Shown: positions 2-28,730, counted from the first letter of the stretch. The stretch: DNA of 29,661 nucleotides from Planctomycetota bacterium (GCA_003576845.1 QEVJ01000070.1:1-29661); one strand, 5' to 3'. Notes: generated by a model not told the origin, from the sequence alone. Program-made: numbers and translations.

Positions 2-60
2 GACGGTCCTCCTGTGCAGTCCTTGCGACTTGCCAAACGAAGCAGGAGGATCGTCTTTTT
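2..60 (+). terminator. Putative intrinsic terminator for an upstream plus-strand gene lying outside the window. The window itself begins with TGA.
   Basis: The 13-bp arms gacggtcctcctg (2-14) and caggaggatcgtc (43-55) pair with one G-U. They are followed by TTTTT (56-60). The long loop makes this weaker than a textbook terminator. Confidence 0.3.
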
Positions 61-200
61 CGCTCGCCCTTCAAATACGAACTCTTCGATTCAACATAAC
101 TACCCAGCAACAAAGAACTTAACCGTGCTATCACTCTCTAAAGTGGCGCTGTCCAATTAGGCTTTCAAATCACCTCGATTTAAGGTTTAAGCGTCTCGCA

Positions 201-1571
201 TCAATGCACATCCGCCCCGCCGAGCTTCTCTTCGACCTTATCCGCCTGCCAGGCGATCGCGGTGAGCAGCTTCGTCACTTCGGGCAAGCTCGCCGTCGAG
301 GCGAGTTGATTTGCCTGTAACACGGCCATCGAACCGCTCGGGCCGTCGACGATCGCGAACGCGCCGTAGACCATTTTCGTGTTGTACTTGAGCAACGCGA
401 GGGCGTTTTCCGGCGTGGCCGCCCCGCAGTTCGACGCGAACGAGATGATCTCGTTGCCGTGCTGGTCCTTGCCGCCGAACGTCACGGAAATGTGCTGCTT
501 TCGCAGCGCGCCGACGGGCACCGTGATCTGCCACGTGTCGCCGCTTTCGCTAATCTGGCCGCCGGCCGCTTGCACCGCCGAGCGCACGAGCACCTTGGGA
601 TCGCCGCCCGGGCCCGCCAGGTCGTCGAAGCTCAGCGCGCCTGCGGGCGGAGCCATACCGGCCGCGACCGTTGCTGCAGGAGCAGCTTGAGCCGGAGCCG
701 ATTGCTGCGGCGCGGCTTGTTGCCCTGGTTGCATCGCCTCGCGGATCATCCCCGGCATCATCATGCCGAAGCCGGCGCCCATGCCCATGCCCATCGCGCC
801 GCCCGCGCTTCCGCCGCCTTGCTCTGCCATTTTGGCCATGCTGTTGGCCGCCTGAAACTTCATGTAGGCGTTCAGATCGCCGACCGCGCCCATCGAACTG
901 CGGGCGTCGATCGCCTTTTGCACTTCCTCCGGAGGCGTGATCGAGTTGATGAAGAAGTCGACGAGCTCGAGGCCGTATTTGCCAAAATCGTCGGCGAGCT
1001 TGGCCCGCGTGCCCGCGCCGATTTCGTCGAACTTTGCCGGCAAATCCAACATGCCGACGCCGGACGTGCCCAAGAGATCGGTGAGCCGCGAAACGATCTG
1101 ATCCTTGAGATAGGTCGCGATTTCGTCGGTCGTATACTTGCCTTGCGTGCCGACGAGCGTGCCGATGAGCAGCTTGGCATCGACGACGCGGAACGAGTAC
1201 TTGCCGAAGCTCCGCAGGCGGACCATGCCGAAGTCTTTGTCGCGGACGATAATCGGCTGCCGCGTGCCCCATTTCTGGTCGAGAAACGTCTGCTTACCGA
1301 CGAAGTAGACCTGGGCCTGAAACGGCGACTTTTCCCACGGAATCGTCAAGAGCCGCGTGAGAATCGGCACGTTCATCGTCGTGAGCGTGTGCCGGCCGGG
1401 ACCGAAGGCGTCGAGCGCCTTGCCGTCGCGAAAGAAGACCGCTTCCTGGTTCTCCTGGACGATGAGCTGCGCCCCGAGCTTGATGTCGGCCGAGCCTTCC
1501 TGGGGCACGCGATGCACGAGCGACGTGTTCGTATTGTCGAAAAAGTCGATGACTTCCAGGCGGATGCCCAT
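201..1571 (-). CDS. SPFH/band-7 (stomatin-like) domain protein with a Gly/Ala/Met-rich low-complexity linker and a C-terminal YbjN-like (putative sensory-transduction/chaperone-like) domain.
   Basis: The N-terminal half ([13 protein letters not shown]...[14 protein letters not shown]...[14 protein letters not shown]) looks like a band-7/SPFH domain. The C-terminus (GDTWQITVP...ISVTFGGKD...ISFASNCG...YGAFAIVDG) looks like YbjN. Start is set at the ATG at 1569-1571 (MGIRLE). The track start at 1691 is a GTG that adds 40 non-homologous residues. Confidence 0.7.
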
Positions 1572-3146: not shown

Positions 3147-6100
3147 CTAACGTCGCCGGAGAGCTCGGGCAGCACGGATCGAAGCCGTCGCTGATTGCTC
3201 GTTAGTGCGCGTGGCTCGTAGCTCCGTTTCGCCAAGCGCGATATCGACCGCGGAAACTACGGAAACGGCCTCACGAACGCGGCGCGACGCACGACGGGCC
3301 GTCAACGTCGATTCGCCAGCGGCATTTCCGTCAATGACCTGTGGGTTGGGCCGTCGAGCCACGACCGCAGCCGCGGCGGATGCGGCCGGCGAACCCGCGC
3401 CCCCACTTTGCCCATAGAGTCGGGCAAACATCGCGACATCGGTTCGATTGACCGTGCCGTCGGCGTTGAGGTCGCCTTGGCTGGGAGTTGCGCCGCTGGC
3501 GATTCCCAGGTGCGCTTGAAGAATCGCCAGGTCGACAAGACCCACGATCGTGTCGCCATTGAAGTCGCCGGGCACGTTGACCGGCGAATCGGGTCCGCCC
3601 GGCGAACCACCGATGGTCGCGCTCGCCCGCCAACCGGTTGCGACGTTCCACTCGCTCTTGGCCGCGTTCAGGTCGACGACGACGAGCGATTTTCCCGGCC
3701 CGTCGGTTTCGGGATACCAGATGTCGTCGTAGGTGAAGTCGTGGAGCGACGCGCCGACGGATTGAGCGAGCACGATCCGCTCTCCGCCGTTGCTGAGGTT
3801 GCCGGAATACTCGCCGGCGATGGCCAGGCCGGTCGTGTCGTAGCGCGTCGCGAAGGCTTGCTGATTGCCGACGACGAGGACGTAGCCGCCGGGCGGCAGC
3901 GACGTGACGGCGCTCGCCGTGAAGTCGAAGGTAATGCCGGTGGTGAATTGCACGCCCGTCAGATCGAGTGTCCGCGTCGTACTGAGGTTGACCAGCTCGA
4001 CGAACTCGAACTCTTCGGCATCCGTGAAGCCCGCGGCGACCTCGGCCGTAGACGGTTCGGCCGGGTGATACATCAGCTCGCCGATCCGCAGAAAATCTTC
4101 GAGCGGCCGATCCGAGTAAGTGCTCGTCACCGTGACCGAATCGGTTCCGATGAGATTGCCCTGGAAGTCGTAGGCCTCGAATTCAAGCGTCTGCGTGCCG
4201 AAGTCGACGGGAATCGTCGCCTGCCACGTGCTCACGCTCGGATAGGTCGCGGCGATCGGGTCGTCCATGCCGGCGACGCGGATTTCGCGGACGTTGATCC
4301 AGGCCGAGCCGCCGAGCGTGACCGTCGGGCCGTCAACGGTGATCTCTTCGCTGCCCGAGGCGACCTCTTCGGCGACGAGCTGCGGCGAGATGAGCATATC
4401 GCTGCTGCCGGAGCCTTGATTGAGGCCGTGAATCGCGAGCACGTTCTCGCCGGCGACGAGGGCCGAGCGAAAGGCGGTGATATCGAACTCCTGAAACTGA
4501 ACGGCGGCGCCGTCGTCGCGGTTGGCCGTCGCTTCGCTGTTCCAGCCGAGCGTCGCCGGGGCATTGGAAGACGCCACGCGCACGCCGTTGAGGAACGCGA
4601 CGAAGCCGTCGTCGTACTTCATCCGCAGCTTGAGCCGGTCGAACGACGCCGGGTCGGCGACGTTAAACGGCACGCGGACGTAGACGCTGTTCGTGTCGTT
4701 CGTGCCGTTGTTGTCCGCGTCGATGGAGGAGAGGATGTCGATGCCGATAAGGTTTTCGTACCCGCCCGTGCGTTCGTAGCCTACTCCCGTCGGTCCGGTC
4801 AGCCAGCCGGCCGTATCGAAACCGGCGCTCATCCACGAATTGCCCAGGGCATCGCTCGTCGGCACGAGCGCGAAGGCCGTCGCCGGTTCGTCAACGAGCG
4901 TCGTCGAGTTGACCGTATCGCCGGTGGACGCGGAGAACGGCACCGCGGGCGGAAGCTGGCTGGCGATGAACGCGCCGCGATTGTCGAGATAGGTGAGCGC
5001 CGGCGCAAAGTTCTGACCCGGCAACAGGCTGCTGTAATGGGTCGTCCAATAGGCCATGTAGGCGCTGTTGAACGTCGTGTTCATCAAATCGTGCAAGTGG
5101 CCGTAGAACAGCCGTTTGTTGGCCGGAATGTCGACGACCTTGCGGATGTTGCTATTGGGGAACGGATCGGCGTTCGTCGGCAAGCCGAATGCGCTCAAAT
5201 CCCAGTCCCACGGAAAGGCCAGGACCTTGCTGTCTTCGGGTCGGACGAACAACCGCAAGTTGTGCGGCAGGCCGCGCCCGTACAGGTCGGAACCGGCGCC
5301 GGCGAGCGATTGCGCCGCGAACACGCGCATCCACTCGTCGACGTCCATCGTGGCCTGCGTGGCGAGGTCGAGCGCCCCGCCGTTTGTGCTGCCCGTAAGG
5401 CTCATCGCCTGGAGGAACTCGATCAGGTCGCTGTAGTCCGACTCGCGGCGAGCGTTCTGCAAGCGGAAATGCCAGCGGTACTTCTCGACGTCTTCGCCCA
5501 AGTATTCCAAGTCGATGTTGTACGATGGATGGCCGTAGCCCGTCGGAACTTTCGGTCCGTCGGGCAGGCCGTTCGACGTGTTGTTCTGGTAATAGATCAA
5601 ATCGAAGTTGTAAACGGGACCGTCGCTGCCGTTGTCGTATTGCTCGTCGAGAAACACGTCGCTGTACTCGCCGAGCATCAGAATCGCGTCGTCGTTGACG
5701 TTCCCCTGGGGCGAGATGAGGTAGACGAGGTCGTCGTACTGCCCGGGCAACCCGCCGCCGGCATTCGCGACCATGTGCTTGATGAGAAACTCGTCCTGGC
5801 CGTTCGGAACGATCGCGCCGCGGCCGGAGCGGTCGATGGCGATGTCTTCGTGGACGCCGCGGAACTTTTGATCGGGGTTGAATTTGACCCGGAAGCTGAC
5901 AAACGCGGTGTTGGGCCGCGCGGCCATGCTGCCCTTGAGCGACACGCCGACGTTGTAGTAGACCTCCTGCTCGTCGTAGACGACCGTTGCCCGCATCTCC
6001 TCGCTGCTCATCACGTTGGTGACGTCGTGGAGCCAGGCGGCGTCGGCCGGGGTCATGATGATGCGGAGACTGTGCTTACCGGCGGCGGGCTGGGCCTGGC

Positions 6101-9100
6101 CGTCTTGCACCTTGTAGAGCGTTCGCGAAGCCGCGCCGGCTGCGGGATACGTCGATGCCGCGCCCAGACCGTCCGTGCCTTCGACGAAAAACTGCACGAT
6201 CGCGCCGGCCGATGCTTGTCCCGGGATGACGCCCATGTAGTGTCCGCCGCCGGCGTGCGTCATCGCGACGCTCGCGAGCGCCCCGCCATTGACCGAGTAG
6301 CGCAGCGTCATGCTTGCGACGCCGTCGGGATCGGCCGCTTGCACCGACACCGTGACCGCTTCGCCCAACGCAGGAACGACGGGCGTGTGCTCGAAGCCTT
6401 CGTAAGTCGGCCCGGCGTTTACGACCGCGCGAGAATTCGGCGCGCCGGGCGTGCCGCCGTGGGCCGGCGAATCGAGGGTAATCCGCCGCGCGAGGCGATT
6501 GAAGTACAGCCGCGTGTTGAACTGATCCGTTCCCGCAAGCCACTTCGCCCGGAACGAGATTTCGTACTCGCGGCCGTTGACGGCGGGCTGGTTGCCGACG
6601 AACGTCGTCTCGGCATGGTTCGAGCGGTCCTGGGTGTACCCGGTGGAGATGAGCTTGAGCACCTTGTTCGTCGGGTCGGTCGGATCGGCGACGACGAAGC
6701 TGCGCTGGTGATTGCCGTTGATTCGCCACGACGCGGGAAGCGCGCCGATCGCGTCGCCTTGGAACGAGCCGTTGATGATTTTCTGCACCGGCGCCGTGCC
6801 GGGCGACTCGATCACCGAAATATCGTCGAGCAAGACTTCGCCGTCGCCGAACAGGCCCATGACGAACTCGTTCCAGCGCGCCGGCGGAAACTCGGCCATC
6901 GCCACGCCGCGGTACGTGAACGTCTTCCACTCGGATTTGCCCGACTCGTCGCTGGCTTGCCAGGCTTCGGCCCGCGAGTTGTCGGCGTCGGGATCGGCAA
7001 GTTCGAGGCTCGAACCCAGGCCGTCGGCGTAGCTCGACCAGCGTCCGCCGTCATAGTAGCGAACCGAGTCGGCGACGTTGTTTCGCGGGTCTTTGAGGAC
7101 AATGCGGTCACTGCTGTTGGAAAGCCCGCCGTTGTAATTGCCGACGATCGCAATGCCGGGATAGATCGCGGCGAGGGCCGCGGCGGCGTTGGATACGACT
7201 AGGTAACCACCTGGGTCGATCGTCGTCCCAGCGGGGAAGTTGAAGTCGATGCCCTCGTCGAGCCGCCAGCCGGTCAGATCCACCGGCGAATTGCCGCGAT
7301 TGTAGAGTTCGATCCATTCCTCGCCGACTTCCATGTATTCGGTCGCCGGGCTGGTTTCGACGACCGTGGCCAGCGCCATGCCGAACGCGACGTCGGAGTC
7401 GGCGGCGCCTGCGGCGGCGTTGATCTCGATCTCGTCGATGGCGATATCGTCGTCCGAAACCTTGATGCGCAGGCCCGTGGCTTGGATAGGGCTGCCGTCT
7501 CGCGCGAGCGTGTAGCGGTGGCGCAGGTACGGCGTGAAGCCGGGTCCCGCGGCGCCGTAGGTCACCGTGCCGATGGTCTGCCACCCGGTCGCGGCGTTGC
7601 CGGTTTCGGCGGTTCCCGTGCCGGGCGCGGCGACGTTCGTGATCTGGATCGTGTACGTGCCGATCGAACGATCGCCGCACGTTCCGCCGCAGGCATCGGT
7701 AACCGTATTGCCGTTGTCGCGTCCCCACGCGATGCTCGAAAAACTTAGCGTGCCGCCGAAGTTCAGCCCGATGTAAGGATTCGGGTCTCCGACCGGGAAG
7801 TTGGCAAGCCAACTGTTCGAGTTGCCGTACTTGCCGTCGCGGATATTGGCAATCAAGTGAATGCCGCCGCCGTATTGGCTGCTGCCGAACGCCGTGACGC
7901 TGGGATTGAGCGCATCGTTAGCGGGAGCGAGAGCCGGATTCGCGGGGCTGTAAAAATCGCCGTCGCTACCGTCCCAGGCAATTTGAAAGTTCGGTTGCGG
8001 CGCAATCTGCGGACCGCCGCCGGTCGGCGCCGTCGCTTGATGGACCTCGACGGCGAGAACGTTCGTTCCGTTCACCAATCCCGTCGCCGGCACGATAATC
8101 GGTCCGGCAAGTCCGGCGTCGTCGACGATGGTGAGCGCCGAGGTGCCATAGTCGATGTCACCGGCGGGCATGTTGTGGCGATAGATTTCGACGCCGTTGA
8201 GATAGAACACCGCGCCGTCGTCGACGACCGGTGAAAGGCTCAACTTGGCGTTCGCCAGCTCGCCGGCATAATCGAACGTTTTGCGGAAGTAATACGTCTC
8301 GCGCCCCGCTGCAAGCTCGGTATTCTTGGGCGCGGGGAGCGTCCCCGCTTCGCTGTGGAACAAGCCCGCGCCGCTCGGCCACGCCGAGTCGTCGTAGGCC
8401 GCCGCACGCCAGGCGACGCCGCGGTCCGTGCCCGAGTCATCGTACTTCCACGTCGCATCGAGCGGAAACACCGGCGTTTCGTCGAACTCGGCCGGGCGCG
8501 GCTGAATCGGCCGGTGATGGTACATGATCTCGTTGATGACGATTTCGTCGTGCAGGGAAACGGTGTTTGCCGCGCCGGGGGTGAGGGCTTCGACGTAATG
8601 CCAATCGCCGGTTCCGCTCGGCGATCGGCCGCGGGCGGCCGTCTTGACGACGATCGCATCCAAGAGGACCGTCTTGCCGGGCGTGTACAAGAAAACTTTG
8701 TCGCCGTCGGCGGCGCCGAAACCGAGTTGTGCCGTGGTGAGCGATAGATACGCTCCCGGCGCGAGCGACGACGCCGGCAGCACGTAGTCCGCCGCGGTCG
8801 CTCCATCGCGGGTAATCACCACGCCGGTCAGATCGAGCGTCGTGTCGCCGCGGTTGTACAGCTCGACGGCGATATTCTCGCCAGCCGCGGAAACCTCGTT
8901 GAGGGCGAGGTTCGGCAAATCCGCGCCGGTTTCGATAATCGTTTCGGCGACCTTGAATTCCGCGGCAAACGTGACGTCGTTGCTGCCGATCGTGGCCTGG
9001 TGTACTTCGACGGCAATTGCATTCTCGCCGGGCTGCAACGCGGCCGCAGATACCGTGAACGGTCCGGCATAGCCGGCTACGCCGACGGCGAGCGACGCCG

Positions 9101-10118
9101 GCGTCGAATAGGTGATGACCGTCGGCGCTCCGGGCATATTGCGGCGGAAAATTTCCTGCCCGTTGAGGTAGTAAACCGCCCCGTCGTCGACGATCGGGCG
9201 AATGACGAGGTTCGCCTGGGAAGGATCGCCCGTGTATTCGAACGTCGTACGGAAGTAATACGTCATGCGGCCGAGCGTGAGCAGCGTCGTCTTCGGCTCG
9301 GGATAGGTTTGGGCATTGTTGGCATAAAACAGGGCATTGCCGACCGACCACGGGTCCGTGCCGCAGGTATCGTCGGCGGTCGGATCGTATCCGCCGGGTC
9401 CGGCGGTCCAATTGGCCGCCGGTTCGGCCGTTTGGCAGTAATGCCAACTGGCATTCACGGGCACGACGGTGGTCTCGACGACCTGCGGCGCGTCGGTGGG
9501 AAAGTTTCGCGCACCCGGCGTGCCGCCGATTTCGCGGCTCGTCGACCAGTTGGCGAACTCCGGCGTGCCGAGGTTCGGTTCGAGCTTGGCGAGCGAAACG
9601 CCACCGCCGTCCGCGCCGCTCGGCCAGTCGCCGTCGTCGCCGTATTCAAGCTCGTCCATGGTTCGGCCACCGTTGCTCACGAGCCGGATCGTTTCCCCGC
9701 CGTTGCCGAGCGTGCCCGTGTAGGGACCAAGCGCGCCGGCGAATCCGGAGGCGGCTTGCAGGTCGGTCGGCGACGCCGCAACGACGAGATAGTCGCCGCC
9801 GCCGAGCCGCGTACCCGGCGCAAACGTGTAGTTGACGCCGCCGGTGATGCGCCAGCCCGATAGGTCCATATCGACGGACTGCTGGTTGTAGAGCTCGACC
9901 CATTCGAGCGCGTCGTTGTTGCCGGCCGGGTGATACATCACCTCGTTGAACACGACGGTGCTGTCGAGGACGCGGCGGTCTTCGAGGGTTTCGAGCGACA
10001 GACGCCGGGTCCGACGGCGGGCGGTCGATTCAGCAGCGACGCCGCGCCGCGATTCGCGCGACGAAGCAGGCGAATTGGGTAGGGAACGGGCGGCGCGAAC
10101 GGGACGCATGAACGGCAT
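3147..10118 (-). CDS. Giant (2323 aa) multidomain surface/secreted-type protein: lamin-tail domains (LTD) x4, CotH kinase-like core, three beta-sandwich-like modules, one YGNSNSW module and a C-terminal dockerin.
   Basis: One continuous ORF runs on the minus strand. Start is chosen at ATG 10116-10118 (MPFMRPV), which has GGAGG 7 nt upstream. The track start at 10199 is a TTG. The N-terminus RRLSLETLEDRRVLD has no hydrophobic signal peptide. LTD-like segments lie at about 9504-9956, 8556-8918, 6975-7343 and 3600-4094 (motifs NEVMYHP...EWVELYN...DLSGW). The CotH-like core at about 5010-6053 reads YYNVGVSLKGSMAARPNTAFVSFRVKF...WDWDLSAFG. The dockerin at 3414-3572 carries GDFNGDTIVGLVDLAIL and GDLNADGTVNRTDVAMF. 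Confidence 0.85.
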   Translation of the reverse strand: MPFMRPVRAARSLPNSPASSRESRRGVAAESTARRRTRRLSLETLEDRRVLDSTVVFNEVMYHPAGNNDALEWVELYNQQSVDMDLSGWRITGGVNYTFAPGTRLGGGDYLVVAASPTDLQAASGFAGALGPYTGTLGNGGETIRLVSNGGRTMDELEYGDDGDWPSGADGGGVSLAKLEPNLGTPEFANWSTSREIGGTPGARNFPTDAPQVVETTVVPVNASWHYCQTAEPAANWTAGPGGYDPTADDTCGTDPWSVGNALFYANNAQTYPEPKTTLLTLGRMTYYFRTTFEYTGDPSQANLVIRPIVDDGAVYYLNGQEIFRRNMPGAPTVITYSTPASLAVGVAGYAGPFTVSAAALQPGENAIAVEVHQATIGSNDVTFAAEFKVAETIIETGADLPNLALNEVSAAGENIAVELYNRGDTTLDLTGVVITRDGATAADYVLPASSLAPGAYLSLTTAQLGFGAADGDKVFLYTPGKTVLLDAIVVKTAARGRSPSGTGDWHYVEALTPGAANTVSLHDEIVINEIMYHHRPIQPRPAEFDETPVFPLDATWKYDDSGTDRGVAWRAAAYDDSAWPSGAGLFHSEAGTLPAPKNTELAAGRETYYFRKTFDYAGELANAKLSLSPVVDDGAVFYLNGVEIYRHNMPAGDIDYGTSALTIVDDAGLAGPIIVPATGLVNGTNVLAVEVHQATAPTGGGPQIAPQPNFQIAWDGSDGDFYSPANPALAPANDALNPSVTAFGSSQYGGGIHLIANIRDGKYGNSNSWLANFPVGDPNPYIGLNFGGTLSFSSIAWGRDNGNTVTDACGGTCGDRSIGTYTIQITNVAAPGTGTAETGNAATGWQTIGTVTYGAAGPGFTPYLRHRYTLARDGSPIQATGLRIKVSDDDIAIDEIEINAAAGAADSDVAFGMALATVVETSPATEYMEVGEEWIELYNRGNSPVDLTGWRLDEGIDFNFPAGTTIDPGGYLVVSNAAAALAAIYPGIAIVGNYNGGLSNSSDRIVLKDPRNNVADSVRYYDGGRWSSYADGLGSSLELADPDADNSRAEAWQASDESGKSEWKTFTYRGVAMAEFPPARWNEFVMGLFGDGEVLLDDISVIESPGTAPVQKIINGSFQGDAIGALPASWRINGNHQRSFVVADPTDPTNKVLKLISTGYTQDRSNHAETTFVGNQPAVNGREYEISFRAKWLAGTDQFNTRLYFNRLARRITLDSPAHGGTPGAPNSRAVVNAGPTYEGFEHTPVVPALGEAVTVSVQAADPDGVASMTLRYSVNGGALASVAMTHAGGGHYMGVIPGQASAGAIVQFFVEGTDGLGAASTYPAAGAASRTLYKVQDGQAQPAAGKHSLRIIMTPADAAWLHDVTNVMSSEEMRATVVYDEQEVYYNVGVSLKGSMAARPNTAFVSFRVKFNPDQKFRGVHEDIAIDRSGRGAIVPNGQDEFLIKHMVANAGGGLPGQYDDLVYLISPQGNVNDDAILMLGEYSDVFLDEQYDNGSDGPVYNFDLIYYQNNTSNGLPDGPKVPTGYGHPSYNIDLEYLGEDVEKYRWHFRLQNARRESDYSDLIEFLQAMSLTGSTNGGALDLATQATMDVDEWMRVFAAQSLAGAGSDLYGRGLPHNLRLFVRPEDSKVLAFPWDWDLSAFGLPTNADPFPNSNIRKVVDIPANKRLFYGHLHDLMNTTFNSAYMAYWTTHYSSLLPGQNFAPALTYLDNRGAFIASQLPPAVPFSASTGDTVNSTTLVDEPATAFALVPTSDALGNSWMSAGFDTAGWLTGPTGVGYERTGGYENLIGIDILSSIDADNNGTNDTNSVYVRVPFNVADPASFDRLKLRMKYDDGFVAFLNGVRVASSNAPATLGWNSEATANRDDGAAVQFQEFDITAFRSALVAGENVLAIHGLNQGSGSSDMLISPQLVAEEVASGSEEITVDGPTVTLGGSAWINVREIRVAGMDDPIAATYPSVSTWQATIPVDFGTQTLEFEAYDFQGNLIGTDSVTVTSTYSDRPLEDFLRIGELMYHPAEPSTAEVAAGFTDAEEFEFVELVNLSTTRTLDLTGVQFTTGITFDFTASAVTSLPPGGYVLVVGNQQAFATRYDTTGLAIAGEYSGNLSNGGERIVLAQSVGASLHDFTYDDIWYPETDGPGKSLVVVDLNAAKSEWNVATGWRASATIGGSPGGPDSPVNVPGDFNGDTIVGLVDLAILQAHLGIASGATPSQGDLNADGTVNRTDVAMFARLYGQSGGAGSPAASAAAAVVARRPNPQVIDGNAAGESTLTARRASRRVREAVSVVSAVDIALGETELRATRTNEQSATASIRAARALRRR
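3414..3572 (-). other. Dockerin-like double Ca-binding repeat at the C-terminal end of the giant protein.
   Basis: PGDFNGDTIVGLVDLAILQAHLG...GDLNADGTVNRTDVAMFARLYG matches the dockerin type-I repeat pattern (DxNxDGxvnxxDxxxl). Confidence 0.65.
5010..6053 (-). other. CotH (spore-coat protein H-like atypical kinase) domain inside the giant protein.
   Basis: The CotH-like opening LKGSMAARPNTAFVSFRVKF and the later WDWDLSAFG and HLHDLMNTTFN segments are present. LTD+CotH is an established architecture for this family. The domain boundaries are approximate. Confidence 0.6.
7419..7877 (-). other. YGNSNSW module (unknown function) in the giant protein, homologous to the two modules of the adjacent PEP-CTERM protein.
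   Basis: Giant protein: IRDGKYGNSNSWLANF...NPYIGLNFGGTLSFSSIAWGRDNGN...ACGGTCGDRSIGTYTIQIT...GWQTIGTVTYG...YLRHRYTL...ATGLRIKVSD..IAIDEIEI. PEP-CTERM repeat 2: LNDGSYGNSNSWIGG...FAGVLLDGLFYVDSIAWGRDNGN...ACGGQCDDRFAGTYTIQYT...GWADVGTVNYT...YLRHEFSV...ASGIRLLVPS...AIDEIEIY. Confidence 0.7.
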
Positions 10119-10232
10119 GAAACGGCCTCCGCGCGACAAAACGACCCACGCCGAAAGCGCCGGCCACGAAAGCCGGACCGTCGGAGGTCGCTGGCGCAAG
10201 GGGAAGTGGTCGGGGAAAAGAGGAAAACGAGA

Positions 10233-10271
10233 ACTGTATACAGTTGACAGTATACTGAGACAGGTTATACT
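10233..10271. promoter_or_regulatory. AT-rich divergent control region with overlapping face-to-face sigma70-like promoters and GTATAC-core palindromes.
   Basis: Plus strand reads TTGACA (10244-10249), N16, TATACT (10266-10271), pointing at the PEP-CTERM gene. Minus strand reads TTGCAA, N16, TATACT, pointing at the giant gene. Palindromes are ACTGTATACAGT (10233-10244) and CAGTATACTG (10248-10257). This is an AT-rich island in GC-rich DNA. Confidence 0.4.
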
Positions 10272-10393
10272 TGCAATCAGTTTTGTAGCGATTTTAGCGA
10301 AATATCGACGCTCTCTTGATTACTTTAACCTGAACGTCCGCCATCGTGTTGCTCGTGAACTGAACCGTCTCGAGATCTCTTCTGGAGGGACCA

Positions 10394-11845
10394 ATGAGTC
10401 GCTTGCCTCTCGCTCTTCGCACCTTCGCCCGCCGTTGCGGCGGCGCGGTGTTCGCCCTGGCCGCAGTGGCTGCCGCGGCCGTCACGCCTCAAACCGCGCA
10501 CGCCGTCGTCACGCTCTCCGGCGGCGGACTCGTCCTCGCCGAACAAGGCGGAACCTTCGCGCCGAACAATGTCGCGGGAGCATCGTTGGGCGCGATTCCG
10601 TTTTCGAGCAGCGACCTCGGTCCGCAACTCGGCATTCCCTTTCATATCGCCGCAAACCTCAACGACGAAACCTACGGCAACTCGAATAGCTGGATCGGCG
10701 GCGACGTGAATCCCTATCCCGCGCCGTTTGCCGGCGTCGCGCTCGACGGTTCCTTCACGCTGCAAAGCATCGCCTTCGGCCGCGACAACCTCGGCGCGTT
10801 CGGCGATCGGACCTTGGGCCTCTACACATTGCAGTACACGACCGCCGGGACGGTTGACGCCAACACACCGGACGCTTCCTGGACGACGATCGGCACGCTC
10901 AACTACGTTTCGCCCGGCGGCACGAACTTCAGCAACCCCGCGCTGCGCCACCGCTACAATTTCGATCCTGTTGCGGGCGTCACCGGCGTGAGATTGCTCG
11001 TCCCAAGCACGGGTATCGGCGGCGGAACCGACATCGACGAGATCGAACTGTACGAAACGGCTGGCGTCATCGTCCCGCCGCCGCCGGTCGTCATCCTGAC
11101 GCCTGCCGCCGGCCACGGTATCGGGTACAACGGCAACGACGGCGATCATTTCGATCCGGCGCCTCCGCCGGGCGGGGCCGTCGTACCGAACAACCTGGCG
11201 CTGGCCAGCAACGGCGGCGTGCCGATTTCGAGCAGCGACCTCGGTCCCGAACTTGGCATCCCGTTTCACGTGGCGGGAAATCTGAACGACGGTTCCTACG
11301 GCAACTCGAATAGCTGGATCGGCGGAAATCTGCCCGGCGGCGTTCCCGCGCCGTTCGCCGGCGTGCTGCTGGATGGTCTGTTCTATGTCGACAGCATTGC
11401 CTGGGGTCGCGACAACGGCAACGGCGCGTTTGACGACAGTTTTGCTGGCTCCGACGCTTGCGGCGGTCAGTGCGACGACCGATTCGCCGGCACCTACACG
11501 ATCCAGTACACGCAACTGACAACGGCCGACGCCAGCACACCGTTCACGGGCGACCCGACGACCGGTTGGGCCGACGTGGGCACGGTCAATTACACCGCGG
11601 TCAACGATGCCGGTCCCGGCGGCGAGTTCACCGGCTATTTGCGCCACGAATTCTCCGTCCAAGCCGGCGGCGGCCCGGTGCTCGCCTCGGGCATTCGGTT
11701 GCTCGTGCCCAGCACGGGGCTGGGCGGCGGCACGGCCATCGACGAGATCGAGATTTACGGCTCGGCCGTTCCCGAACCGTCGACTTACGCGCTGGTCGCT
11801 ACGGCGATTTTCGGCCTGGCCGCGATTCGTCGCCGCCGCCGATAA
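10394..11845 (+). CDS. PEP-CTERM sorting-domain protein with an N-terminal signal peptide and two tandem YGNSNSW modules.
   Basis: ATG at 10394 has GGAGG 5 nt upstream. Signal peptide reads MSRLPLALRTFARRCGGAVFALAAVAAAAVTPQTAHA. Module copies lie at about 10556-11060 and 11165-11767. The C-terminus VPEPSTYALVATAIFGLAAIRRRRR (11768-11842) is a textbook PEP-CTERM (VPEP motif, TM helix, Arg cluster). Confidence 0.85.
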   Translation: MSRLPLALRTFARRCGGAVFALAAVAAAAVTPQTAHAVVTLSGGGLVLAEQGGTFAPNNVAGASLGAIPFSSSDLGPQLGIPFHIAANLNDETYGNSNSWIGGDVNPYPAPFAGVALDGSFTLQSIAFGRDNLGAFGDRTLGLYTLQYTTAGTVDANTPDASWTTIGTLNYVSPGGTNFSNPALRHRYNFDPVAGVTGVRLLVPSTGIGGGTDIDEIELYETAGVIVPPPPVVILTPAAGHGIGYNGNDGDHFDPAPPPGGAVVPNNLALASNGGVPISSSDLGPELGIPFHVAGNLNDGSYGNSNSWIGGNLPGGVPAPFAGVLLDGLFYVDSIAWGRDNGNGAFDDSFAGSDACGGQCDDRFAGTYTIQYTQLTTADASTPFTGDPTTGWADVGTVNYTAVNDAGPGGEFTGYLRHEFSVQAGGGPVLASGIRLLVPSTGLGGGTAIDEIEIYGSAVPEPSTYALVATAIFGLAAIRRRRR

Positions 11846-11913
11846 ACCGTCGTGCCGAAAAACGTCGAGCCGCCGCGGAGATAGTCCTCGTTGCGGCCGG
11901 CTCGATGGGGTAG

Positions 11914-11955
11914 ACGCGCTCTGCGTTGCGTCGACAATGCAGAGCGCGTTTTTTT
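11914..11955 (+). terminator. Rho-independent terminator downstream of the PEP-CTERM gene.
   Basis: A perfect 11-bp stem acgcgctctgc/gcagagcgcgt (11914-11924 and 11939-11949) with a 14-nt loop is followed by seven Ts (11949-11955). Confidence 0.7.
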
Positions 11956-12032
11956 GCGCGCCGCACGTGGGAGTTGCCGCGCCGGCCCGGCGTCCGTTTC
12001 GTCGATACGATTCCATTTGTTCCGATATTCCC

Positions 12033-12941
12033 ATGCCATTCGCCACAAACTTGACCGGCCTGATCGCCGCTCCGTTTACCCCGTTCGACGAAAGCGGCCG
12101 ATTGCGGCTCGCCGGCGTCGAACCGATCGCCGCCCATCTCGCCGCCAACCGAGTCGCCGGCGCGTTCGTCGCCGGCACGACGGGCGAGGGCCTTTCGATG
12201 TCGGTCGACGAGCGGCGCGAGCTGGCGACGGCGTGGTCCGAAGCGGCCCGCAACCACCGCGTGAAGCTGATCGTCCATGTCGGCGCGGCCGCGCAATGTG
12301 ACGCGGTCGCACTGGCCGCGCACGCCTGCGAAATCGGGGCCGATGCGGTGGCCGCGATGGGGCCGCCGTACTTTCGCCCGACCACCGTCGACGATCTCGT
12401 CGGGTTTTGCGAACCGATCGCGGCCGCCTGCGGTCCGCTGCCGTTTTACTACTATCACATCCCCGACTGGACCGGCGTCCGCCTGCCGATGGACCAGTTC
12501 CTCGCTCGCGGCCGCGAGCGAATCGCCAACCTCCGCGGTCTCAAGTTCACGCACAACGACCTCGCGATGTTCCAGCTTTGCACGCGGCTCGACGGCGGGG
12601 CATTCGACATCTTCTTCGGCAGCGACGAGATCATGCTCGCCGCGCTGGCGCTCGGCGCGCGGGGCTTTGTCGGCAGCACGTACAATTTCGCCGCGCCGCT
12701 CTATCACCGCATTCTCGCGGCATTCGACGCGGGTGATTGGCCCACCGCCCGAGCCTTGCAAGAAAAGTCCGTCCGGCTGGTGAACGAACTGTGCGCCCGG
12801 CGATTTCTTCCCGCGGCCAAACGGCTGATGGCCGTCGTCGGCGTCGACTGCGGCCCGGTGCGGCCACCGCTGGCAGACATCTCCGTCGCGGATCGCGGCG
12901 CGCTCGCGCGGCAATTGCATGAATTCGAGGCGATAACCTAG
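12033..12941 (+). CDS. Dihydrodipicolinate synthase / N-acetylneuraminate lyase family (DapA-like class I aldolase) protein.
   Basis: GTTGEGLSMS, YYYHIP and LKFTHND (candidate Schiff-base Lys) motifs are present. The 302-aa length is typical. Start is chosen at ATG 12033 (MPFATNLTG). The track start at 11607 overlaps the PEP-CTERM gene and the terminator. Confidence 0.8.
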   Translation: MPFATNLTGLIAAPFTPFDESGRLRLAGVEPIAAHLAANRVAGAFVAGTTGEGLSMSVDERRELATAWSEAARNHRVKLIVHVGAAAQCDAVALAAHACEIGADAVAAMGPPYFRPTTVDDLVGFCEPIAAACGPLPFYYYHIPDWTGVRLPMDQFLARGRERIANLRGLKFTHNDLAMFQLCTRLDGGAFDIFFGSDEIMLAALALGARGFVGSTYNFAAPLYHRILAAFDAGDWPTARALQEKSVRLVNELCARRFLPAAKRLMAVVGVDCGPVRPPLADISVADRGALARQLHEFEAIT

Positions 12942-19980: not shown

Positions 19981-20220
19981 ATGAAACAATTCGTGGACGC
20001 GGTATATGAGGACGGCATCTTTCGACCGGTGCTGCCGGTCGAGCTTCCGCCGGGCGAACGCGTGCGCGTCGAGATCGACGTGAAGCCCAAGGTGGACGTC
20101 GAGAAAATGCTCTCCGAATTCCAAAAAGTGTATGAAGGATTTACGCCAGCGGAAATCGAAGAACTGGAGAAAGTAATCCTCGACCGAAGCAACTTTTCGC
20201 GGCGGGAGCTCGACCTATGA
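19981..20220 (+). CDS. DUF104-type antitoxin (partner of a PIN toxin).
   Basis: MKQFVDAVYEDGIFRPVLPVELPPGERVRVEI matches the AF2212/DUF104 antitoxin N-terminal pattern. GGAGG lies 5 nt upstream. The stop overlaps the next gene start (ATGA at 20217-20220). Confidence 0.65.
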   Translation: MKQFVDAVYEDGIFRPVLPVELPPGERVRVEIDVKPKVDVEKMLSEFQKVYEGFTPAEIEELEKVILDRSNFSRRELDL

Positions 20221-20630
20221 GCCGGTCGCGCGTGCTGATCGACACCGATGTGCTCTCGGCTATCCAGCGCAGCGATCCCCAGGCGATGTCACGCCTCGCC
20301 GAGTACATTTCACTCTTTGGTCGGGCAACGTGGTCCGTAATCACAAGCTATGAAGTATTGCGTGGACTTCGCTGGAAACGCGCGACGGGACAAGAACTGG
20401 CGTTTAGGCGGATTTGCGATGGCCATGAAGTCTTGCCTCTGACCGCGGAAATCGCCGACGTTGCGGCGCAACTCCATGCTGACTGCAAGTCCCGAGGAAT
20501 TGCGGCTGGCGACGCCGATACCTTGATCGCAGCAACCGCGCTCGTGTACGGCATGAGCGTTGCCACGGGAAACGTGCGCCATTTTCGCGAGTTCTCGAGC
20601 CTTCACTTGGAAAACTGGCTCGTGCATTAG
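20217..20630 (+). CDS. vapC: PIN-domain toxin (VapC-like ribonuclease).
   Basis: Acidic PIN residues are seen in VLIDTDVL, SYEVLRG and AAGDADTLIAATA. Size is 137 aa. The gene is translationally coupled to the upstream antitoxin. Confidence 0.8.
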   Translation: MSRSRVLIDTDVLSAIQRSDPQAMSRLAEYISLFGRATWSVITSYEVLRGLRWKRATGQELAFRRICDGHEVLPLTAEIADVAAQLHADCKSRGIAAGDADTLIAATALVYGMSVATGNVRHFREFSSLHLENWLVH

Positions 20631-23315: not shown

Positions 23316-25328
23316 TCACTTCGCTTCGTCCGACGGCGGCGACATAATCCGGCCGGCGAAGAGAATGTTCTTCGTGCGATCGTCGCGAATCAACAGCACA
23401 AACGGGCGATCGACCCGGAAAATGACCTTCCTGGGCGGCTTGGTAATACCACCGCCGCCGCCAAATCCCCCGGCTGTAGCCGCCGCGGCGTCCGTTCCCT
23501 TTTCATCGACGCGCAAGAATGCCTGATGCGTGACGAACGTCAAATAGAAAGGCTCCTCAGTCGATAAGGCGTCGAATTGCGCTTGCGACGGATCGAACGC
23601 GCGGCGAATACCGAGCGCTTGAAGCGGATCCTCTAAGCCCAGTGAGTCGTGAAAGGTGAACTTAGGAAAATAAAGCTTCACGTTCGCCGTTTCGAACGCG
23701 TTGGCGACGCTCTCGATATAGTCCGCGGACAGCGATTTCTCAAGCGTCGCGAGTCCGCCTTCTTCTGAGGGAGGCGCCATCACAATCATGGATGCGGCGC
23801 CGTCAACGGAATCAGGACCGTAGCGCAGTTCGACGGCCCGCACTCCGTCCTCCATTTCCGCATACGGCAAATCGGTTTCCTGCGTCATCGTCGGGACCAT
23901 CCGCCGGCCCTCGATGGCGTTGAAGGGAAGCGGCTTCGTGCCTCGTTCGAACGGGTTCGACCATTTGCCGTTGAAGTAAACCGCGTTGGCCAGCACCGAG
24001 CGCGTCTCTGGCGTAATCATGTGCGGCCGAAGTAAATCACGAATCCGATCGGCCGTGTGATCGGCGACCCAGGCGTTGATCGCTTCGCGCGCCGCTTCGG
24101 GCGTGGCCTTGAAGTCGACGAAGCCGAGTTCGCCGCCGTAATGCGTTTGGAGCGTATTGACGAATTCGTCCTCGATCTCGAATCGCGAACCTGCCCAAAG
24201 CCGATTCGCGACGCGGAGTTCATAACCGCGCCGCTCGGGAGTTGCGCGCAGCGCCGTGCGCAGACTGCCATAGCCGGCGTGCAGTTTCGCGGTTTCGCCG
24301 TCGAAACGCAGCACTTTGGAAATCTCCGCGCCCGTTTCGTTTGTCGCGCCCGCACGGAGCATCGCGAGCGCCACGGCAATGCTGTGCGGCGAATAGAAAA
24401 CGTTTCGATCGTTGTCCGCGGTCAATTGGCGATAAAGATCGAACGCCATGTCGTTCGCCCCGTGAACGATGGCGTCGCGGTTTTCGTCGGGCTTGAGCAC
24501 GGGTTCGTCGCTTGAATTCCGCTCTCCGAAGGCTTCGTCAAGCGCTTCCTCAAGCGCGCGATTCGCGGACGGCTTCTTACCCGTCTTGCTGTCCGTTTTG
24601 TGCTGCGCCGCGCGGAGGTCGGCAAGTAACCGCTCGATTTGCTCGTGGATGTCTTGCGTTTGCGAAATGACGAGCACGTAAATGTTCGCCGTCTGATACT
24701 CTTTTATGTTCGCATACCCGCCGACGGCGCTCCAAGTTGTCGGCGCGACATTCGACGTGATCAATTCGATCAGAGACTCCATATCGCCGTGCACGTATTC
24801 GCCGGACTCGTCGCGATCTGAAATGTCGTAGACGCGAAGCTCTAGCGCCGACTGTGCGGCGTCGAGCGTGGTAATCCAGAGCGTTTCATACTTGACGACC
24901 CACTTCAGGTCGTGCTCTTGCAGGATCAAGTCGAGGGCCGAGCGGCGCGAAATCGGCGATTTCCGGAACGTGACCTGCAATGCGGCCGGGTCGATGCTGG
25001 CGTCGGCGAGCTTGCGTTTATCGACGTAAATTCGCTCGCCGAACTCCGCTTCGAGGGTGTCAACGACTTCGTTGAGCGGCGTGTTGTCGAAGCCGAACGT
25101 CGCCGGCTTGCTGAGTGCTTCCGCGATACGGCGGTAAGCTTTGCGATTTGCGGCGACGACGTCCCAGTCCGGGGCGGGCGGGGAGGCGATTGCAAGTCGG
25201 GATTCCGGGACCGAATCGTTGGTCTTTTCGTCCGCCGCCGGATCGCCCGCAAGGACGCTTCTGCCGGCGAGCGACGCGGCGATAAGTGCTAGCGCAAACG
25301 TGCGTAGCACGCGAAAACTGCGAGCCAT
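23316..25328 (-). CDS. Secreted serpin (serine protease inhibitor) with a roughly 270-aa N-terminal extension containing a secretin-N/STN-like segment.
   Basis: The serpin core (about 23319-24443) shows NDMAFDLYRQL...NVFYSPHSIAVALAML, the hinge EKGTDAAAATAGGFGGGGGITKPP and the C-terminal FRVDRPFVLLIRDD. The N-extension (about 24876-25118) reads TFGFDNTPLNEVVDTLEAEFGERIYVDKRK...VTFRKSPISRRSALDLILQEHDLKWVVKYETLWITT. Start ATG (revcomp of 25326-25328) has GAGGAGG 5 nt upstream and a signal peptide MARSFRVLRTFALALIAASLAGRSVLAG. Confidence 0.85.
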   Translation of the reverse strand: MARSFRVLRTFALALIAASLAGRSVLAGDPAADEKTNDSVPESRLAIASPPAPDWDVVAANRKAYRRIAEALSKPATFGFDNTPLNEVVDTLEAEFGERIYVDKRKLADASIDPAALQVTFRKSPISRRSALDLILQEHDLKWVVKYETLWITTLDAAQSALELRVYDISDRDESGEYVHGDMESLIELITSNVAPTTWSAVGGYANIKEYQTANIYVLVISQTQDIHEQIERLLADLRAAQHKTDSKTGKKPSANRALEEALDEAFGERNSSDEPVLKPDENRDAIVHGANDMAFDLYRQLTADNDRNVFYSPHSIAVALAMLRAGATNETGAEISKVLRFDGETAKLHAGYGSLRTALRATPERRGYELRVANRLWAGSRFEIEDEFVNTLQTHYGGELGFVDFKATPEAAREAINAWVADHTADRIRDLLRPHMITPETRSVLANAVYFNGKWSNPFERGTKPLPFNAIEGRRMVPTMTQETDLPYAEMEDGVRAVELRYGPDSVDGAASMIVMAPPSEEGGLATLEKSLSADYIESVANAFETANVKLYFPKFTFHDSLGLEDPLQALGIRRAFDPSQAQFDALSTEEPFYLTFVTHQAFLRVDEKGTDAAAATAGGFGGGGGITKPPRKVIFRVDRPFVLLIRDDRTKNILFAGRIMSPPSDEAK

Positions 25329-25447
25329 GTGAGCCTCCTCAGTGACAAACAGCGTTCCGATATCATAACTCGCCGGCCGCGCGAGGTGTTCCAGTCCTCG
25401 CCGCGAACCATGCAAGCTAAACGCAAATTCGTCTTTGTAGTCCTCCG

Positions 25448-28654: not shown

Positions 28655-28700
28655 CGCGTGCTCTTGTAGTTCGGGTTGGGCGGCGGAGGCCAGCGTCCGG

Positions 28701-28730
28701 TTGACGCTCCGCGTCGGGGCGACGTAAAAT
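28701..28730 (+). promoter_or_regulatory. Sigma70-like promoter for the Rrf2 regulator gene.
   Basis: TTGACG (28701-28706), 18 nt, TAAAAT (28725-28730). The -10 element overlaps the palindromic operator. Confidence 0.4.

What the first reader, a model, noticed from the sequence alone, without database searches (positions are those of the whole stretch)
10119..10393. AT-rich island with face-to-face near-consensus promoters and GTATAC-core palindromes between the giant and PEP-CTERM genes
Within a GC-rich 275-bp intergenic region lies a roughly 110-bp AT-rich block. On the plus strand TTGACA-N16-TATACT points at the PEP-CTERM gene. On the minus strand, built from the same nucleotides, TTGCAA-N16-TATACT points at the giant gene. 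The palindromes ACTGTATACAGT (10233-10244) and CAGTATACTG (10248-10257) overlap the -35 and -10 elements. This arrangement allows co-regulation or mutually exclusive firing of the two promoters, and repression by a dimeric regulator that recognises TGTATACA-like sites. It supports coordinated expression of the two partner proteins.
Basis: seen in the sequence. Interest (0 to 1): 0.6.

Follow-up and report, generated by a model that had tools for sequence, protein, structure and literature searches.

The report
Two-way promoter with GntR-type operator
A 45-base stretch between two oppositely oriented surface-protein genes of a planctomycete holds two overlapping promoters and a likely repressor-binding palindrome; it is strongly conserved and real, but it is an ordinary kind of bacterial gene switch.

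Summary
The promoter-like sites TTGACA-N16-TATACT (+) and TTGCAA-N16-TATACT (-) occupy the same 33 bp (10244-10276). The palindromes ACTGTATACAGT (10233-10244) and CAGTATACTG (10248-10257) are present. The block sits in the most AT-rich 110 nt of the window.

The promoters are divergent and overlapping, with predicted starts about 36 bp apart and no transcript overlap. They are not "face-to-face".

Seven orthologous loci plus the window share synteny: a giant LTD/CotH/dockerin gene lies divergent from the PEP-CTERM gene. Their synonymous sites are saturated, yet TGTATACAGTTGACAGTATACTG and TTATACTTGCAAT are invariant and the 6-7 nt between them vary. A ninth locus (L164) keeps both promoters and the first palindrome core.

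The same TGTATACA core, as (A/G)ATTGTATACAAT, lies 42-58 nt upstream of homologous genes in eight Verrucomicrobiales loci. Seven of these also carry a divergent GntR/FCD regulator gene. Three planctomycete orthologous loci have a GntR/FCD gene directly downstream. The core fits the published FadR-subfamily operator consensus and the proven Atu1419 site ATGTATACAT.

Best reading: a compact two-way sigma-70-type promoter repressed by an FCD-type GntR regulator that is encoded elsewhere in this genome. Transcription starts and protein binding are untested. It is a new member of a known kind, of moderate-to-low interest.

The parts
10213..10330 (.). AT-rich island: 38% GC in a 63.5% GC window. It is the lowest-GC stretch of the whole window.
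10244..10249 (+). -35 hexamer TTGACA of P(+), which points at the PEP-CTERM gene
   Evidence: 11/12, spacer 16; invariant in 9 loci
10266..10271 (+). -10 hexamer TATACT of P(+). The predicted start is about 10275-10279, giving a 5' UTR of about 115-119 nt.
   Evidence: invariant in 8 loci; TATATT in L164. The start position is inferred.
10271..10276 (-). -35 hexamer TTGCAA of P(-), which points at the giant gene
   Evidence: 9/12, spacer 16; invariant in 8 loci; TTGCTA in L164
10249..10254 (-). -10 hexamer TATACT of P(-). The predicted start is about 10241-10244, giving a 5' UTR of about 124 nt.
   Evidence: invariant in 9 loci. The start position is inferred.
10233..10244 (.). O1: palindrome ACTGTATACAGT with core TGTATACA, a putative FCD-type GntR operator. 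Its centre lies at about +3.5 of P(-) and about -39.5 of P(+).
   Evidence: The core is invariant in 9 loci. The same core lies upstream of homologous genes next to GntR/FCD genes. It fits the published consensus.
10248..10257 (.). O2: palindrome CAGTATACTG (GT-AT-AC kept, flanks swapped). It covers the P(-) -10 and lies in the P(+) spacer. It is a putative second, weaker operator.
   Evidence: invariant in 8 loci including the CTG that belongs to no hexamer; degenerate in L164
10258..10264 (.). Spacer shared by both promoters. Most of it varies between orthologues (10258, 10260 and 10262-10264); 10259 (G) and 10261 (C) are invariant. The variation shows that conservation of the flanking blocks is selective.
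10213..10232 (+). Purine/A-tract block GGAAAAGAGGAAAACGAGAA, partly conserved. It is in the UP-element position for P(+) (about -46 to -65) and forms the start of the giant-gene 5' UTR.
   Evidence: invariant A's; function is inferred
10280..10300 (-). T-tract block GTTTTGTAGCGATTTTAGCGA, which reads as A-tracts on the minus strand. It is in the mirror-image UP-element position for P(-) and forms the start of the PEP-CTERM 5' UTR.
   Evidence: invariant T's; function is inferred
3147..10118 (-). Giant gene, 2323 aa: four matched lamin-tail-domain stretches, a CotH domain and a dockerin domain. GGAGG lies 7 nt before the ATG (10126-10130).
10394..11845 (+). PEP-CTERM gene, 483 aa: two copies of a domain of about 200 aa with no Pfam or PDB match, then a PEP-CTERM tail. 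GGAGG lies at 10384-10388.

Best explanation
This is a compact two-way promoter. Two sigma-70-type promoters lie on opposite strands of the same 33 bp. The -35 of each abuts the -10 of the other. P(+) drives the PEP-CTERM gene and P(-) drives the giant LTD/CotH/dockerin gene. Their predicted starts are about 36 bp apart, so one bound RNA polymerase must exclude a second. Two GT-AT-AC palindromes are laid over this core. O1 (ACTGTATACAGT) covers the P(-) start site and abuts the P(+) -35. O2 (CAGTATACTG) covers the P(-) -10 and sits in the P(+) spacer. They are most likely operators for a dimeric or tetrameric FadR-subfamily (FCD) GntR repressor that shuts both promoters together. An unknown small-molecule effector would release the repressor, so the two partner proteins are made together. 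What is shown: the sequence elements, their selective conservation, the conserved gene pairing, the recurrence of the same core next to GntR/FCD genes at homologous loci, and the fit to a published consensus. What is inferred: transcription starts, binding, repression rather than activation, and the identity of the regulator, which is not encoded in this window.
For: Promoter-like sites: 2 found against 0.2 expected, and the same mirrored pair occurs in L164. Conservation: in 8 loci the PEP-CTERM proteins are 62-85% identical, four-fold sites average 0.49 pairwise identity, and only 11.5% of them are invariant. Even so, 10235-10257 (23 nt) and 10265-10277 (13 nt) are invariant, and most of the 7 nt between them vary. 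By that proxy a 23-nt invariant run has a probability of about 2e-22. O1 lies outside all four hexamers apart from one shared T, and the CTG of O2 belongs to no hexamer, so promoter function alone does not explain their invariance. Synteny of the giant gene and the PEP-CTERM gene holds in all orthologous loci examined. The link to a regulator rests on several results. GntR+FCD genes lie directly downstream in the loci of P0017 and P0015, with an FCD fragment in L164. Related GntR+FCD genes lie beside homologues in L013, L014, L017, L021, L023, L069, L078 and L033. In L013, L014, L021, L023 and L078 a perfect TGTATACA core lies 42-51 nt before the homologue's ATG; L017 and L069 have one mismatch; L007 has a perfect core without an adjacent regulator. 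In L014 the core follows TTGACC-N18-TAGAAT. TGTATACA occurs 18 times in 1.08 Mb of loci against about 7 expected. Sixteen of the 18 lie upstream of this gene family. The flanks change symmetrically between the phyla (C...G in the window's clade, T...A in Verrucomicrobiales), as expected for a dimer site. Literature: the FadR-subfamily consensus is an A/T-rich palindrome with TKGT/ACMA boxes, with GT and AC 3 or 2 nt apart (PMC4494728). The FCD regulator Atu1419 binds ATGTATACAT at promoters, and its G3 is essential (PMC7797058).
Against: No GntR-family gene is found in the 29.7-kb window or in the flanks of the seven closest loci. No second copy of the palindrome occurs in about 105 kb of the closest loci, so no regulon could be shown. 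O1 reads CTGT/ACAG, not the canonical TKGT/ACMA. O2 reads CAGT/ACTG and is degenerate in L164. The FCD fragment of L164 is only 34-37% identical to the other regulators, and its DNA-binding domain was not recovered. That the planctomycete and verrucomicrobial regulators are orthologous is therefore not shown. Planctomycete promoter consensus and transcription starts are not established here. A 67% homologue in a different gene context (L165) and orthologues at 60% identity or less (L160, L162, L163) lack the element.
Confidence: 0.62

Rival explanations
1. An unregulated two-way promoter. The palindromes are by-products of placing a -10 hexamer (TATACT) back-to-back with a -35 hexamer on each strand, and no transcription factor is involved. 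Expression of the two genes would be set only by promoter strength and polymerase competition.
For: O2 and the TTATACTTGCAA block coincide largely with hexamers. The pseudo-symmetry of promoter elements is known to create two-way promoters (PMC12825309). No regulator gene lies in the window.
Against: O1 (10233-10243) lies outside every hexamer and is invariant, as is the CTG at 10255-10257. The same TGTATACA core occurs downstream of single, one-directional promoters in Verrucomicrobiales beside GntR/FCD genes. That rules out promoter mirroring as the origin of the core.
Confidence: 0.12
2. The palindromes are operators, but for a regulator of another family. Candidates are the Rrf2 protein encoded at 28676-29266, a LexA-like repressor, or an Xre, TetR or MarR protein.
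For: Short AT-rich palindromes are bound by many helix-turn-helix families. An Rrf2 gene lies 18 kb away. CTGT and ACAG are the half-site words of the E. coli SOS box (own knowledge).
Against: The spacing is CTGT-N2-ACAG or CTGT-N9-ACAG, not the N8 of the SOS box. No Rrf2 or other regulator gene recurs at the related loci, whereas GntR/FCD genes recur at 11 of them. The GT-N2-AC core is the GntR signature.
Confidence: 0.12
3. A directional switch. A regulator at O1 (about -39.5 of P(+), about +3.5 of P(-)) would activate the PEP-CTERM promoter while blocking the giant-gene promoter. The two genes would then be expressed alternately rather than together.
For: The position of O1 relative to P(+) is close to a class II activator position (inferred coordinates). 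Activators at two-way promoters repress the opposite direction through polymerase competition (PMC12825309).
Against: The conserved pairing of the two genes suggests joint use. FCD regulators characterised so far are mostly repressors. In Verrucomicrobiales the site sits downstream of the -10 of the homologue's own promoter, which is a repressor position. P(+) is already 11/12 to consensus and should not need activation.
Confidence: 0.1
4. An RNA-level element. The conserved block would act in the transcripts, for example as a 5'-terminal hairpin of the giant-gene mRNA or a structured leader, rather than on DNA.
For: The minus-strand transcript would begin inside O1, and the fold puts a 3-bp hairpin there.
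Against: Neither 5' UTR folds better than shuffles (z = -0.09 and -0.59). The consensus fold of 8 leaders has 11 pairs and no compensatory change. Rfam gives no match even at E = 1. Most of the invariant block lies upstream of both predicted starts.
Confidence: 0.03

Closest known systems
FadR-subfamily (FCD) GntR operators, for example Atu1419 of Agrobacterium fabrum (ATGTATACAT) and the group with 2 nt between GT and AC (GntR, HpxS, HypR, MdcY, PrpR)
   Same: A short A/T-rich palindrome with GT-AT-AC at its centre, and the identical 8-bp core TGTATACA. The sites overlap -10 boxes and spacers of divergent promoters, and there are two sites per intergenic region. GntR/FCD genes lie next to homologous target genes.
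   Different: The outer positions are C/G here, not the T/A of the TKGT/ACMA boxes. The regulator gene is not adjacent in this window. The two sites are 14 bp apart centre to centre, not 109-190 bp as for Atu1419. The target genes encode secreted or surface proteins, not a catabolic pathway. Binding is untested.
Overlapping divergent promoters with shared operators, such as Tn10 tetA/tetR and E. coli bioA/bioBFCD (own knowledge) and acrR/acrAB (PMC12825309)
   Same: Two promoters on opposite strands lie within one polymerase footprint. Palindromic operators are laid over both, so one repressor controls both directions (for acrR/acrAB: AcrR represses both RNAs).
   Different: In those systems one of the two transcripts usually encodes the repressor (tetR, acrR). 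Here neither divergent gene is a regulator.
Bidirectional promoters in the sense of Warman, Grainger and colleagues (pseudo-symmetric shared -10 region)
   Same: Pseudo-symmetric sequence, divergent transcription, and steric competition between two polymerase orientations.
   Different: That class has -10 elements coinciding on opposite strands, with starts 18 bp apart (also 10 or 23). Here the two -10 hexamers are 11 bp apart, each abuts the other promoter's -35, and the predicted starts are about 36 bp apart.
E. coli NanR operator (GGTATA)3
   Same: An FCD-type GntR repressor and a GTATA-containing operator. DHDPS-family (the family that includes NanA lyases), Kelch/NanM-like and BNR genes lie nearby in the window and in related loci.
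   Different: NanR uses three tandem direct GGTATA repeats. Here there is no GGTATA, and the sites are inverted repeats 14-15 bp apart.

Membership tests
Sigma-70-type promoter | -35 hexamer like TTGACA and -10 hexamer like TATAAT (A at position 2, T at position 6), separated by 16-18 bp | tested here: met
   + strand 11/12, - strand 9/12, both with spacer 16; shuffles give a mean of 0.2 sites
Sigma-70-type promoter | Placed upstream of a gene in the right orientation and conserved in orthologues | tested here: met
   Each promoter points at its own gene, about 115-125 nt before a start codon preceded by GGAGG. The hexamers are invariant in 8 loci and kept with spacer 16 in L164.
Sigma-70-type promoter | A transcription start about 7 nt downstream of the -10 | not testable with these tools
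   No transcript data are available.
Bidirectional promoter (shared -10 region; Warman, Grainger and colleagues) | -10 elements coincide on opposite strands, with divergent starts 18 bp apart (also 10 or 23) | tested here: not met
   The -10 hexamers lie at 10249-10254 (-) and 10266-10271 (+), and the predicted starts are about 36 bp apart. The definition is from PMC12825309.
Overlapping divergent promoters under a shared operator (tet, bio or acr type) | Both promoters lie within one polymerase footprint, with palindromic operator(s) over both | tested here: met
   Both promoters lie within 10244-10276. O2 covers the P(-) -10 and the P(+) spacer, and O1 covers the P(-) start.
Overlapping divergent promoters under a shared operator (tet, bio or acr type) | One of the divergent transcripts encodes the repressor | tested here: not met
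   The two genes encode an LTD/CotH/dockerin protein and a PEP-CTERM protein.
FadR-subfamily (FCD) GntR operator | A palindrome of the form NyGT-N(2-3)-ACNy with an A/T-rich centre | tested here: met
   O1 is C-TGT-AT-ACA-G and O2 is C-AGT-AT-ACT-G.
FadR-subfamily (FCD) GntR operator | TKGT/ACMA boxes | tested here: inconclusive
   O1 has CTGT/ACAG, so the K position fits but the outer T/A do not. TTGT is present in L157, L164 and all verrucomicrobial sites. O2 has CAGT/ACTG, which does not fit.
FadR-subfamily (FCD) GntR operator | A GntR/FCD regulator gene linked to the target | tested here: inconclusive
   Not met in the window or its seven closest loci. Met at 11 related loci: P0017, P0015, L164, L033, L013, L014, L017, L021, L023, L069 and L078.
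FadR-subfamily (FCD) GntR operator | Specific binding by the regulator, released by an effector | not testable with these tools
   This needs EMSA, DAP-seq or footprinting.
LexA SOS box (E. coli type) | CTGT-N8-ACAG | tested here: not met
   Only CTGT-N2-ACAG and CTGT-N9-ACAG are present. The consensus is from own knowledge.
NanR operator | Three tandem direct GGTATA repeats | tested here: not met
   There is no GGTATA in 10200-10300. The definition is from the abstract of PMC8012715.
Sigma-54 promoter | GG-N10-GC (TGGCAC-N5-TTGC) | tested here: not met
   The only candidate, GG at 10263-10264 and GC at 10273-10274, has 8 nt between them. The consensus is from own knowledge.
Known structured RNA (Rfam) | A match to a covariance model, or a conserved fold with covariation | tested here: not met
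   no match; no covariation; z-scores about 0

The most novel reading that the evidence does not exclude
An FCD-type GntR sensor, with its TGTATACA operator, may form a regulon shared across Planctomycetota and Verrucomicrobiota. It would control a family of secreted two-domain proteins with PEP-CTERM or dockerin tails. In one Pirellulales clade the operator would have been built into a mirror-symmetric two-way promoter that also drives a 2300-aa LTD/CotH/dockerin protein. Because only one polymerase fits on the shared core, the two partner genes could fire alternately in single cells. O1 might then act as a direction selector rather than as a simple off switch.
Probability: 0.12. Interest if true: 0.55.

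Novelty: new member of a known kind. Interest (0 to 1): 0.36.

Why it matters
Little is known about how planctomycetes regulate transcription, or about what their many giant LTD/CotH/dockerin proteins and PEP-CTERM proteins do. This locus offers a defined 45-bp element that is more conserved than the coding sequence. It also offers a concrete candidate regulator family and a testable operator word, A[CT]TGTATACA[AG]T, which recurs in a second phylum. Finding the effector of that regulator would show when these surface proteins are made, and so hint at their function. The compact near-consensus two-way promoter could also serve as a genetic tool for these bacteria. The regulatory principle itself, a repressor over overlapping divergent promoters, is textbook.

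Tried and rejected
- **RNA element.** Rfam at gathering thresholds and at E <= 1 found nothing in the region. Single-sequence folds of both leaders are no better than shuffles. The consensus fold of 8 leaders shows no compensatory changes.
- **Sigma-54, LexA and NanR.** All were rejected on spacing or sequence.
- **Warman-type bidirectional promoter.** Rejected on start spacing.
- **Regulon search.** There is no further CTGTATACAG or TGTATACA site in about 105 kb of the window and the seven closest loci beyond coding-region near-matches.
- **Recovering the full planctomycete GntR/FCD protein.** A homologue search with the 110-aa L164 fragment returned nothing. The loci of P0017 and P0015 have no DNA on file.
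- **More distant or non-syntenic homologues.** L160/L161, L162, L163, L003-L032 and L165 lack the element. L160 has two separate, non-overlapping promoter-like regions and a different palindrome, GTATATAATATAC.
- **Literature search on planctomycete promoters.** It failed on a syntax error and was not repeated.
- **PDB profile search with the PEP-CTERM protein family.** No hit.

Full report
**1. What is in the sequence**

The finding's coordinates are exact. The giant gene on the minus strand (3147-10118, 2323 aa) has four matched lamin-tail-domain stretches, a CotH domain and a dockerin domain. It starts at an ATG preceded by GGAGG. The plus-strand gene (10394-11845, 483 aa) ends in a PEP-CTERM motif and is also preceded by GGAGG.

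Positions 10213-10330 of the 275-bp spacer are 38% GC, against 63.5% for the window. The lowest-GC 110-nt segment of the whole window starts at 10216.

The promoter scan finds exactly two sigma-70-like sites in 9600-10900, against 0.2 expected from shuffles:
- TTGACA(10244-10249)-N16-TATACT(10266-10271) on the plus strand, 11/12 matches.
- TTGCAA(10276..10271)-N16-TATACT(10254..10249) on the minus strand, 9/12 matches.

The palindromes ACTGTATACAGT (10233-10244, called O1 here) and CAGTATACTG (10248-10257, O2) are present.

**2. Geometry**

The plus-strand promoter fires rightward and the minus-strand promoter fires leftward. The predicted starts, about 10278 and about 10242, are roughly 36 bp apart, and the transcripts do not overlap. 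These are therefore overlapping divergent promoters, not face-to-face ones. The -35 of each shares one base with the -10 of the other, so both lie within the same 33 bp, and a polymerase bound in one orientation must exclude the other.

This is not the bidirectional-promoter class described for E. coli. In that class the -10 elements coincide on opposite strands and the starts are 18 bp apart, or 10 or 23 (PMC12825309).

The positions of the two palindromes differ:
- **O1** shares only its last T with the plus-strand -35. Its centre lies at about +3.5 of P(-) and about -39.5 of P(+).
- **O2** covers the P(-) -10 entirely and lies in the P(+) spacer.

O2 differs from O1 by a symmetric T/A swap at the positions flanking GTATAC. 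That swap supplies the final T of the minus-strand -10 hexamer. This looks like a compromise between operator and promoter (inference).

A-tracts on each non-template strand lie in mirror-image UP-element positions (10213-10232 and 10280-10300). They are partly conserved, and their function is inferred.

**3. Conservation**

Homologues of the PEP-CTERM protein are numerous in Planctomycetota and Verrucomicrobiota. Seven further loci have proteins 70-80% identical to the window's by pairwise alignment (62-85% among all eight): L001, L002, L154, L155, L157, L158 and L159. All keep a divergent gene on the other side of the spacer. Where it was annotated it is a giant LTD/CotH/dockerin gene, and in L001 and L002 its N-terminal coding sequence can be read directly.

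Four-fold degenerate sites in the coding sequence are saturated. Mean pairwise identity is 0.49, and only 11.5% are invariant across all eight. Even so, the alignment of the spacers shows 10235-10257 (TGTATACAGTTGACAGTATACTG, 23 nt) and 10265-10277 (TTATACTTGCAAT, 13 nt) to be invariant. Most of the seven bases between them vary, and the flanks diverge. By the four-fold proxy, a 23-nt invariant run has a probability of about 2e-22.

Part of the invariant block belongs to no hexamer: most of O1 and the CTG at 10255-10257. Promoter function alone therefore does not account for it.

A ninth locus, L164 (66% identity), keeps TTGACA-N16-TATATT and TTGCTA-N16-TATACT, together with ATTGTATACAGT. Its second palindrome is degenerate.

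The element is absent from orthologues at 60% identity or less and from a non-syntenic 67% homologue. The mirrored architecture is therefore specific to one Pirellulales clade.

**4. What recognises the palindromes**

No regulator gene flanks the spacer in the window. The only regulator found is an Rrf2 protein 18 kb away.

Three orthologous planctomycete loci do have a GntR/FCD gene directly downstream of the PEP-CTERM gene. The loci of P0017 and P0015 carry a full 225-aa gene, and L164 carries an FCD fragment.

A tblastn search of all fetched loci finds related GntR+FCD genes beside homologues in L033 and in seven Verrucomicrobiales loci. In those seven loci the spacer between the regulator gene and the homologue contains (A/G)ATTGTATACAAT. 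The core is perfect in five loci and has one mismatch in two. It lies 42-51 nt before the homologue's start codon. In L014 it lies just downstream of TTGACC-N18-TAGAAT. L007 has the same core after a promoter-like site read by eye, TTGCAT-N16-CATAAT, with no adjacent regulator.

Across 1.08 Mb of loci, TGTATACA occurs 18 times against about 7 expected, and 16 of the 18 lie upstream of this gene family. The flanking positions change symmetrically between the phyla: C...G in the window's clade and T...A in Verrucomicrobiales. L157 and L164 are intermediate. This is the pattern expected for a site read by a symmetric dimer.

**5. Fit to known families**

The FadR-subfamily consensus is an A/T-rich palindrome with TKGT/ACMA boxes. 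GT and AC are 3 nt apart, or 2 nt in several groups (PMC4494728). The FCD regulator Atu1419 binds ATGTATACAT, which has the same 8-bp core. Its sites overlap -10 boxes and a -10/-35 spacer of a divergent promoter pair, and the G of GT is essential (PMC7797058).

O1 meets the GT-N2-AC and A/T-centre criteria. It only partly meets the outer-box criterion. O2 meets only the core criterion.

LexA, NanR and sigma-54 signatures are not met. No RNA family or conserved fold is present.

**6. Mechanism proposed**

An FCD-type GntR repressor, encoded elsewhere in this genome, binds O1 and probably O2. Bound there, it blocks polymerase access to the shared core and silences both genes. An unidentified effector releases it, and the PEP-CTERM protein and its giant partner are then expressed together. 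P(+), at 11/12 to consensus, is likely the stronger of two sterically competing promoters.

What is shown:
- the sequence elements;
- selective conservation;
- the conserved gene pairing;
- the association of the core with GntR/FCD genes at related loci;
- the fit to a published consensus.

What is inferred:
- the transcription starts;
- binding;
- the sign of regulation;
- the regulator's identity in this genome;
- polymerase competition.

The rivals, with their confidences:
- an unregulated mirrored promoter, 0.12;
- another regulator family, 0.12;
- a directional switch, 0.10;
- an RNA element, 0.03.

**7. Verdict**

The element is real, under strong purifying selection, and now has a specific candidate regulator family.

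It is a new member of a known kind: a GntR-type operator on overlapping divergent promoters. The recurrence of the operator and regulator across two phyla, at a family of uncharacterised secreted proteins, is the most interesting by-product. Interest is moderate to low.

Noticed in passing
window 10351-10363: A conserved box, GCT(C/A)GTGAA(C/T)(T/C)GA, lies in the PEP-CTERM 5' UTR about 35 nt before the ATG. GCUCGU could pair with the invariant AUGAGU at the start codon, but there is no covariation, and two loci break one pair. It also repeats the GAACTG word found on the left flank of O1 (direct repeat D1). It could be a distant half-site for a looping tetramer or a translational element.
   Followed up: partly
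window 10394-11845 and alignment A1: The PEP-CTERM protein consists of two copies of a domain of about 200 aa (recurring GAIPFSSSDLGPELGIPFH...NLNDG.YGNSNSWIGG...DEIE.Y). It has no Pfam domain and no PDB sequence match. Homologues in other lineages carry dockerin, F5/8-type-C or laminin-G-like additions, or are embedded in proteins of 850-1700 aa.
   Followed up: partly
window 11607-12941; L154 11576-16635; L155 8918-12650: A DHDPS-family gene directly follows the PEP-CTERM gene in the window, L154, L155 and L159. This is the family that includes N-acetylneuraminate lyases. Kelch/NanM-like, BNR_2 (sialidase-like) and GFO/IDH/MocA genes follow in related loci. This suggests a sugar-acid context that might point to the effector of the proposed FCD regulator.
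   Followed up: no
L033 1700-1745 and 2690-2720: In this Planctomycetaceae locus the GntR/FCD gene lies upstream of the homologue on the same strand. There is no TGTATACA site. Instead, TGCATAATGCA precedes the regulator gene, and a related ACATTATGCAC follows the homologue's TTGACA-N16-TATATT promoter. This may be a diverged operator.
   Followed up: no
L160 640-810: In the 60% orthologue the two genes have separate, non-overlapping promoter-like regions about 110 bp apart. A different palindrome, GTATATAATATAC, covers the minus-strand -10. The overlapped design therefore arose, or was lost, within the order.
   Followed up: partly
window 28676-29266 (+) and 29419-29491 (+): An Rrf2-family regulator gene (with weaker, below-cutoff matches to the SUF, RirA and NsrR models) is followed by a tRNA gene at the end of the window.
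   Followed up: no
window 20217-20630 (+), 23316-25415 (-): There is a PIN-domain protein, which may be a toxin-antitoxin-type toxin. There is also a serpin with an N-terminal extension of about 300 aa that has no Pfam match.
   Followed up: no
L164 4520-4852 (-): The word-indexed homologue search with this 110-aa FCD fragment returned no hit at all. Yet GntR+FCD genes are annotated at the same position in the loci of P0017 and P0015. This is probably a limit of the index.
   Followed up: no
window 31-210: This is the only other stretch of the window below 45% GC. It lies downstream of the SPFH/Band-7 gene and has no similarity to the element studied.
   Followed up: partly
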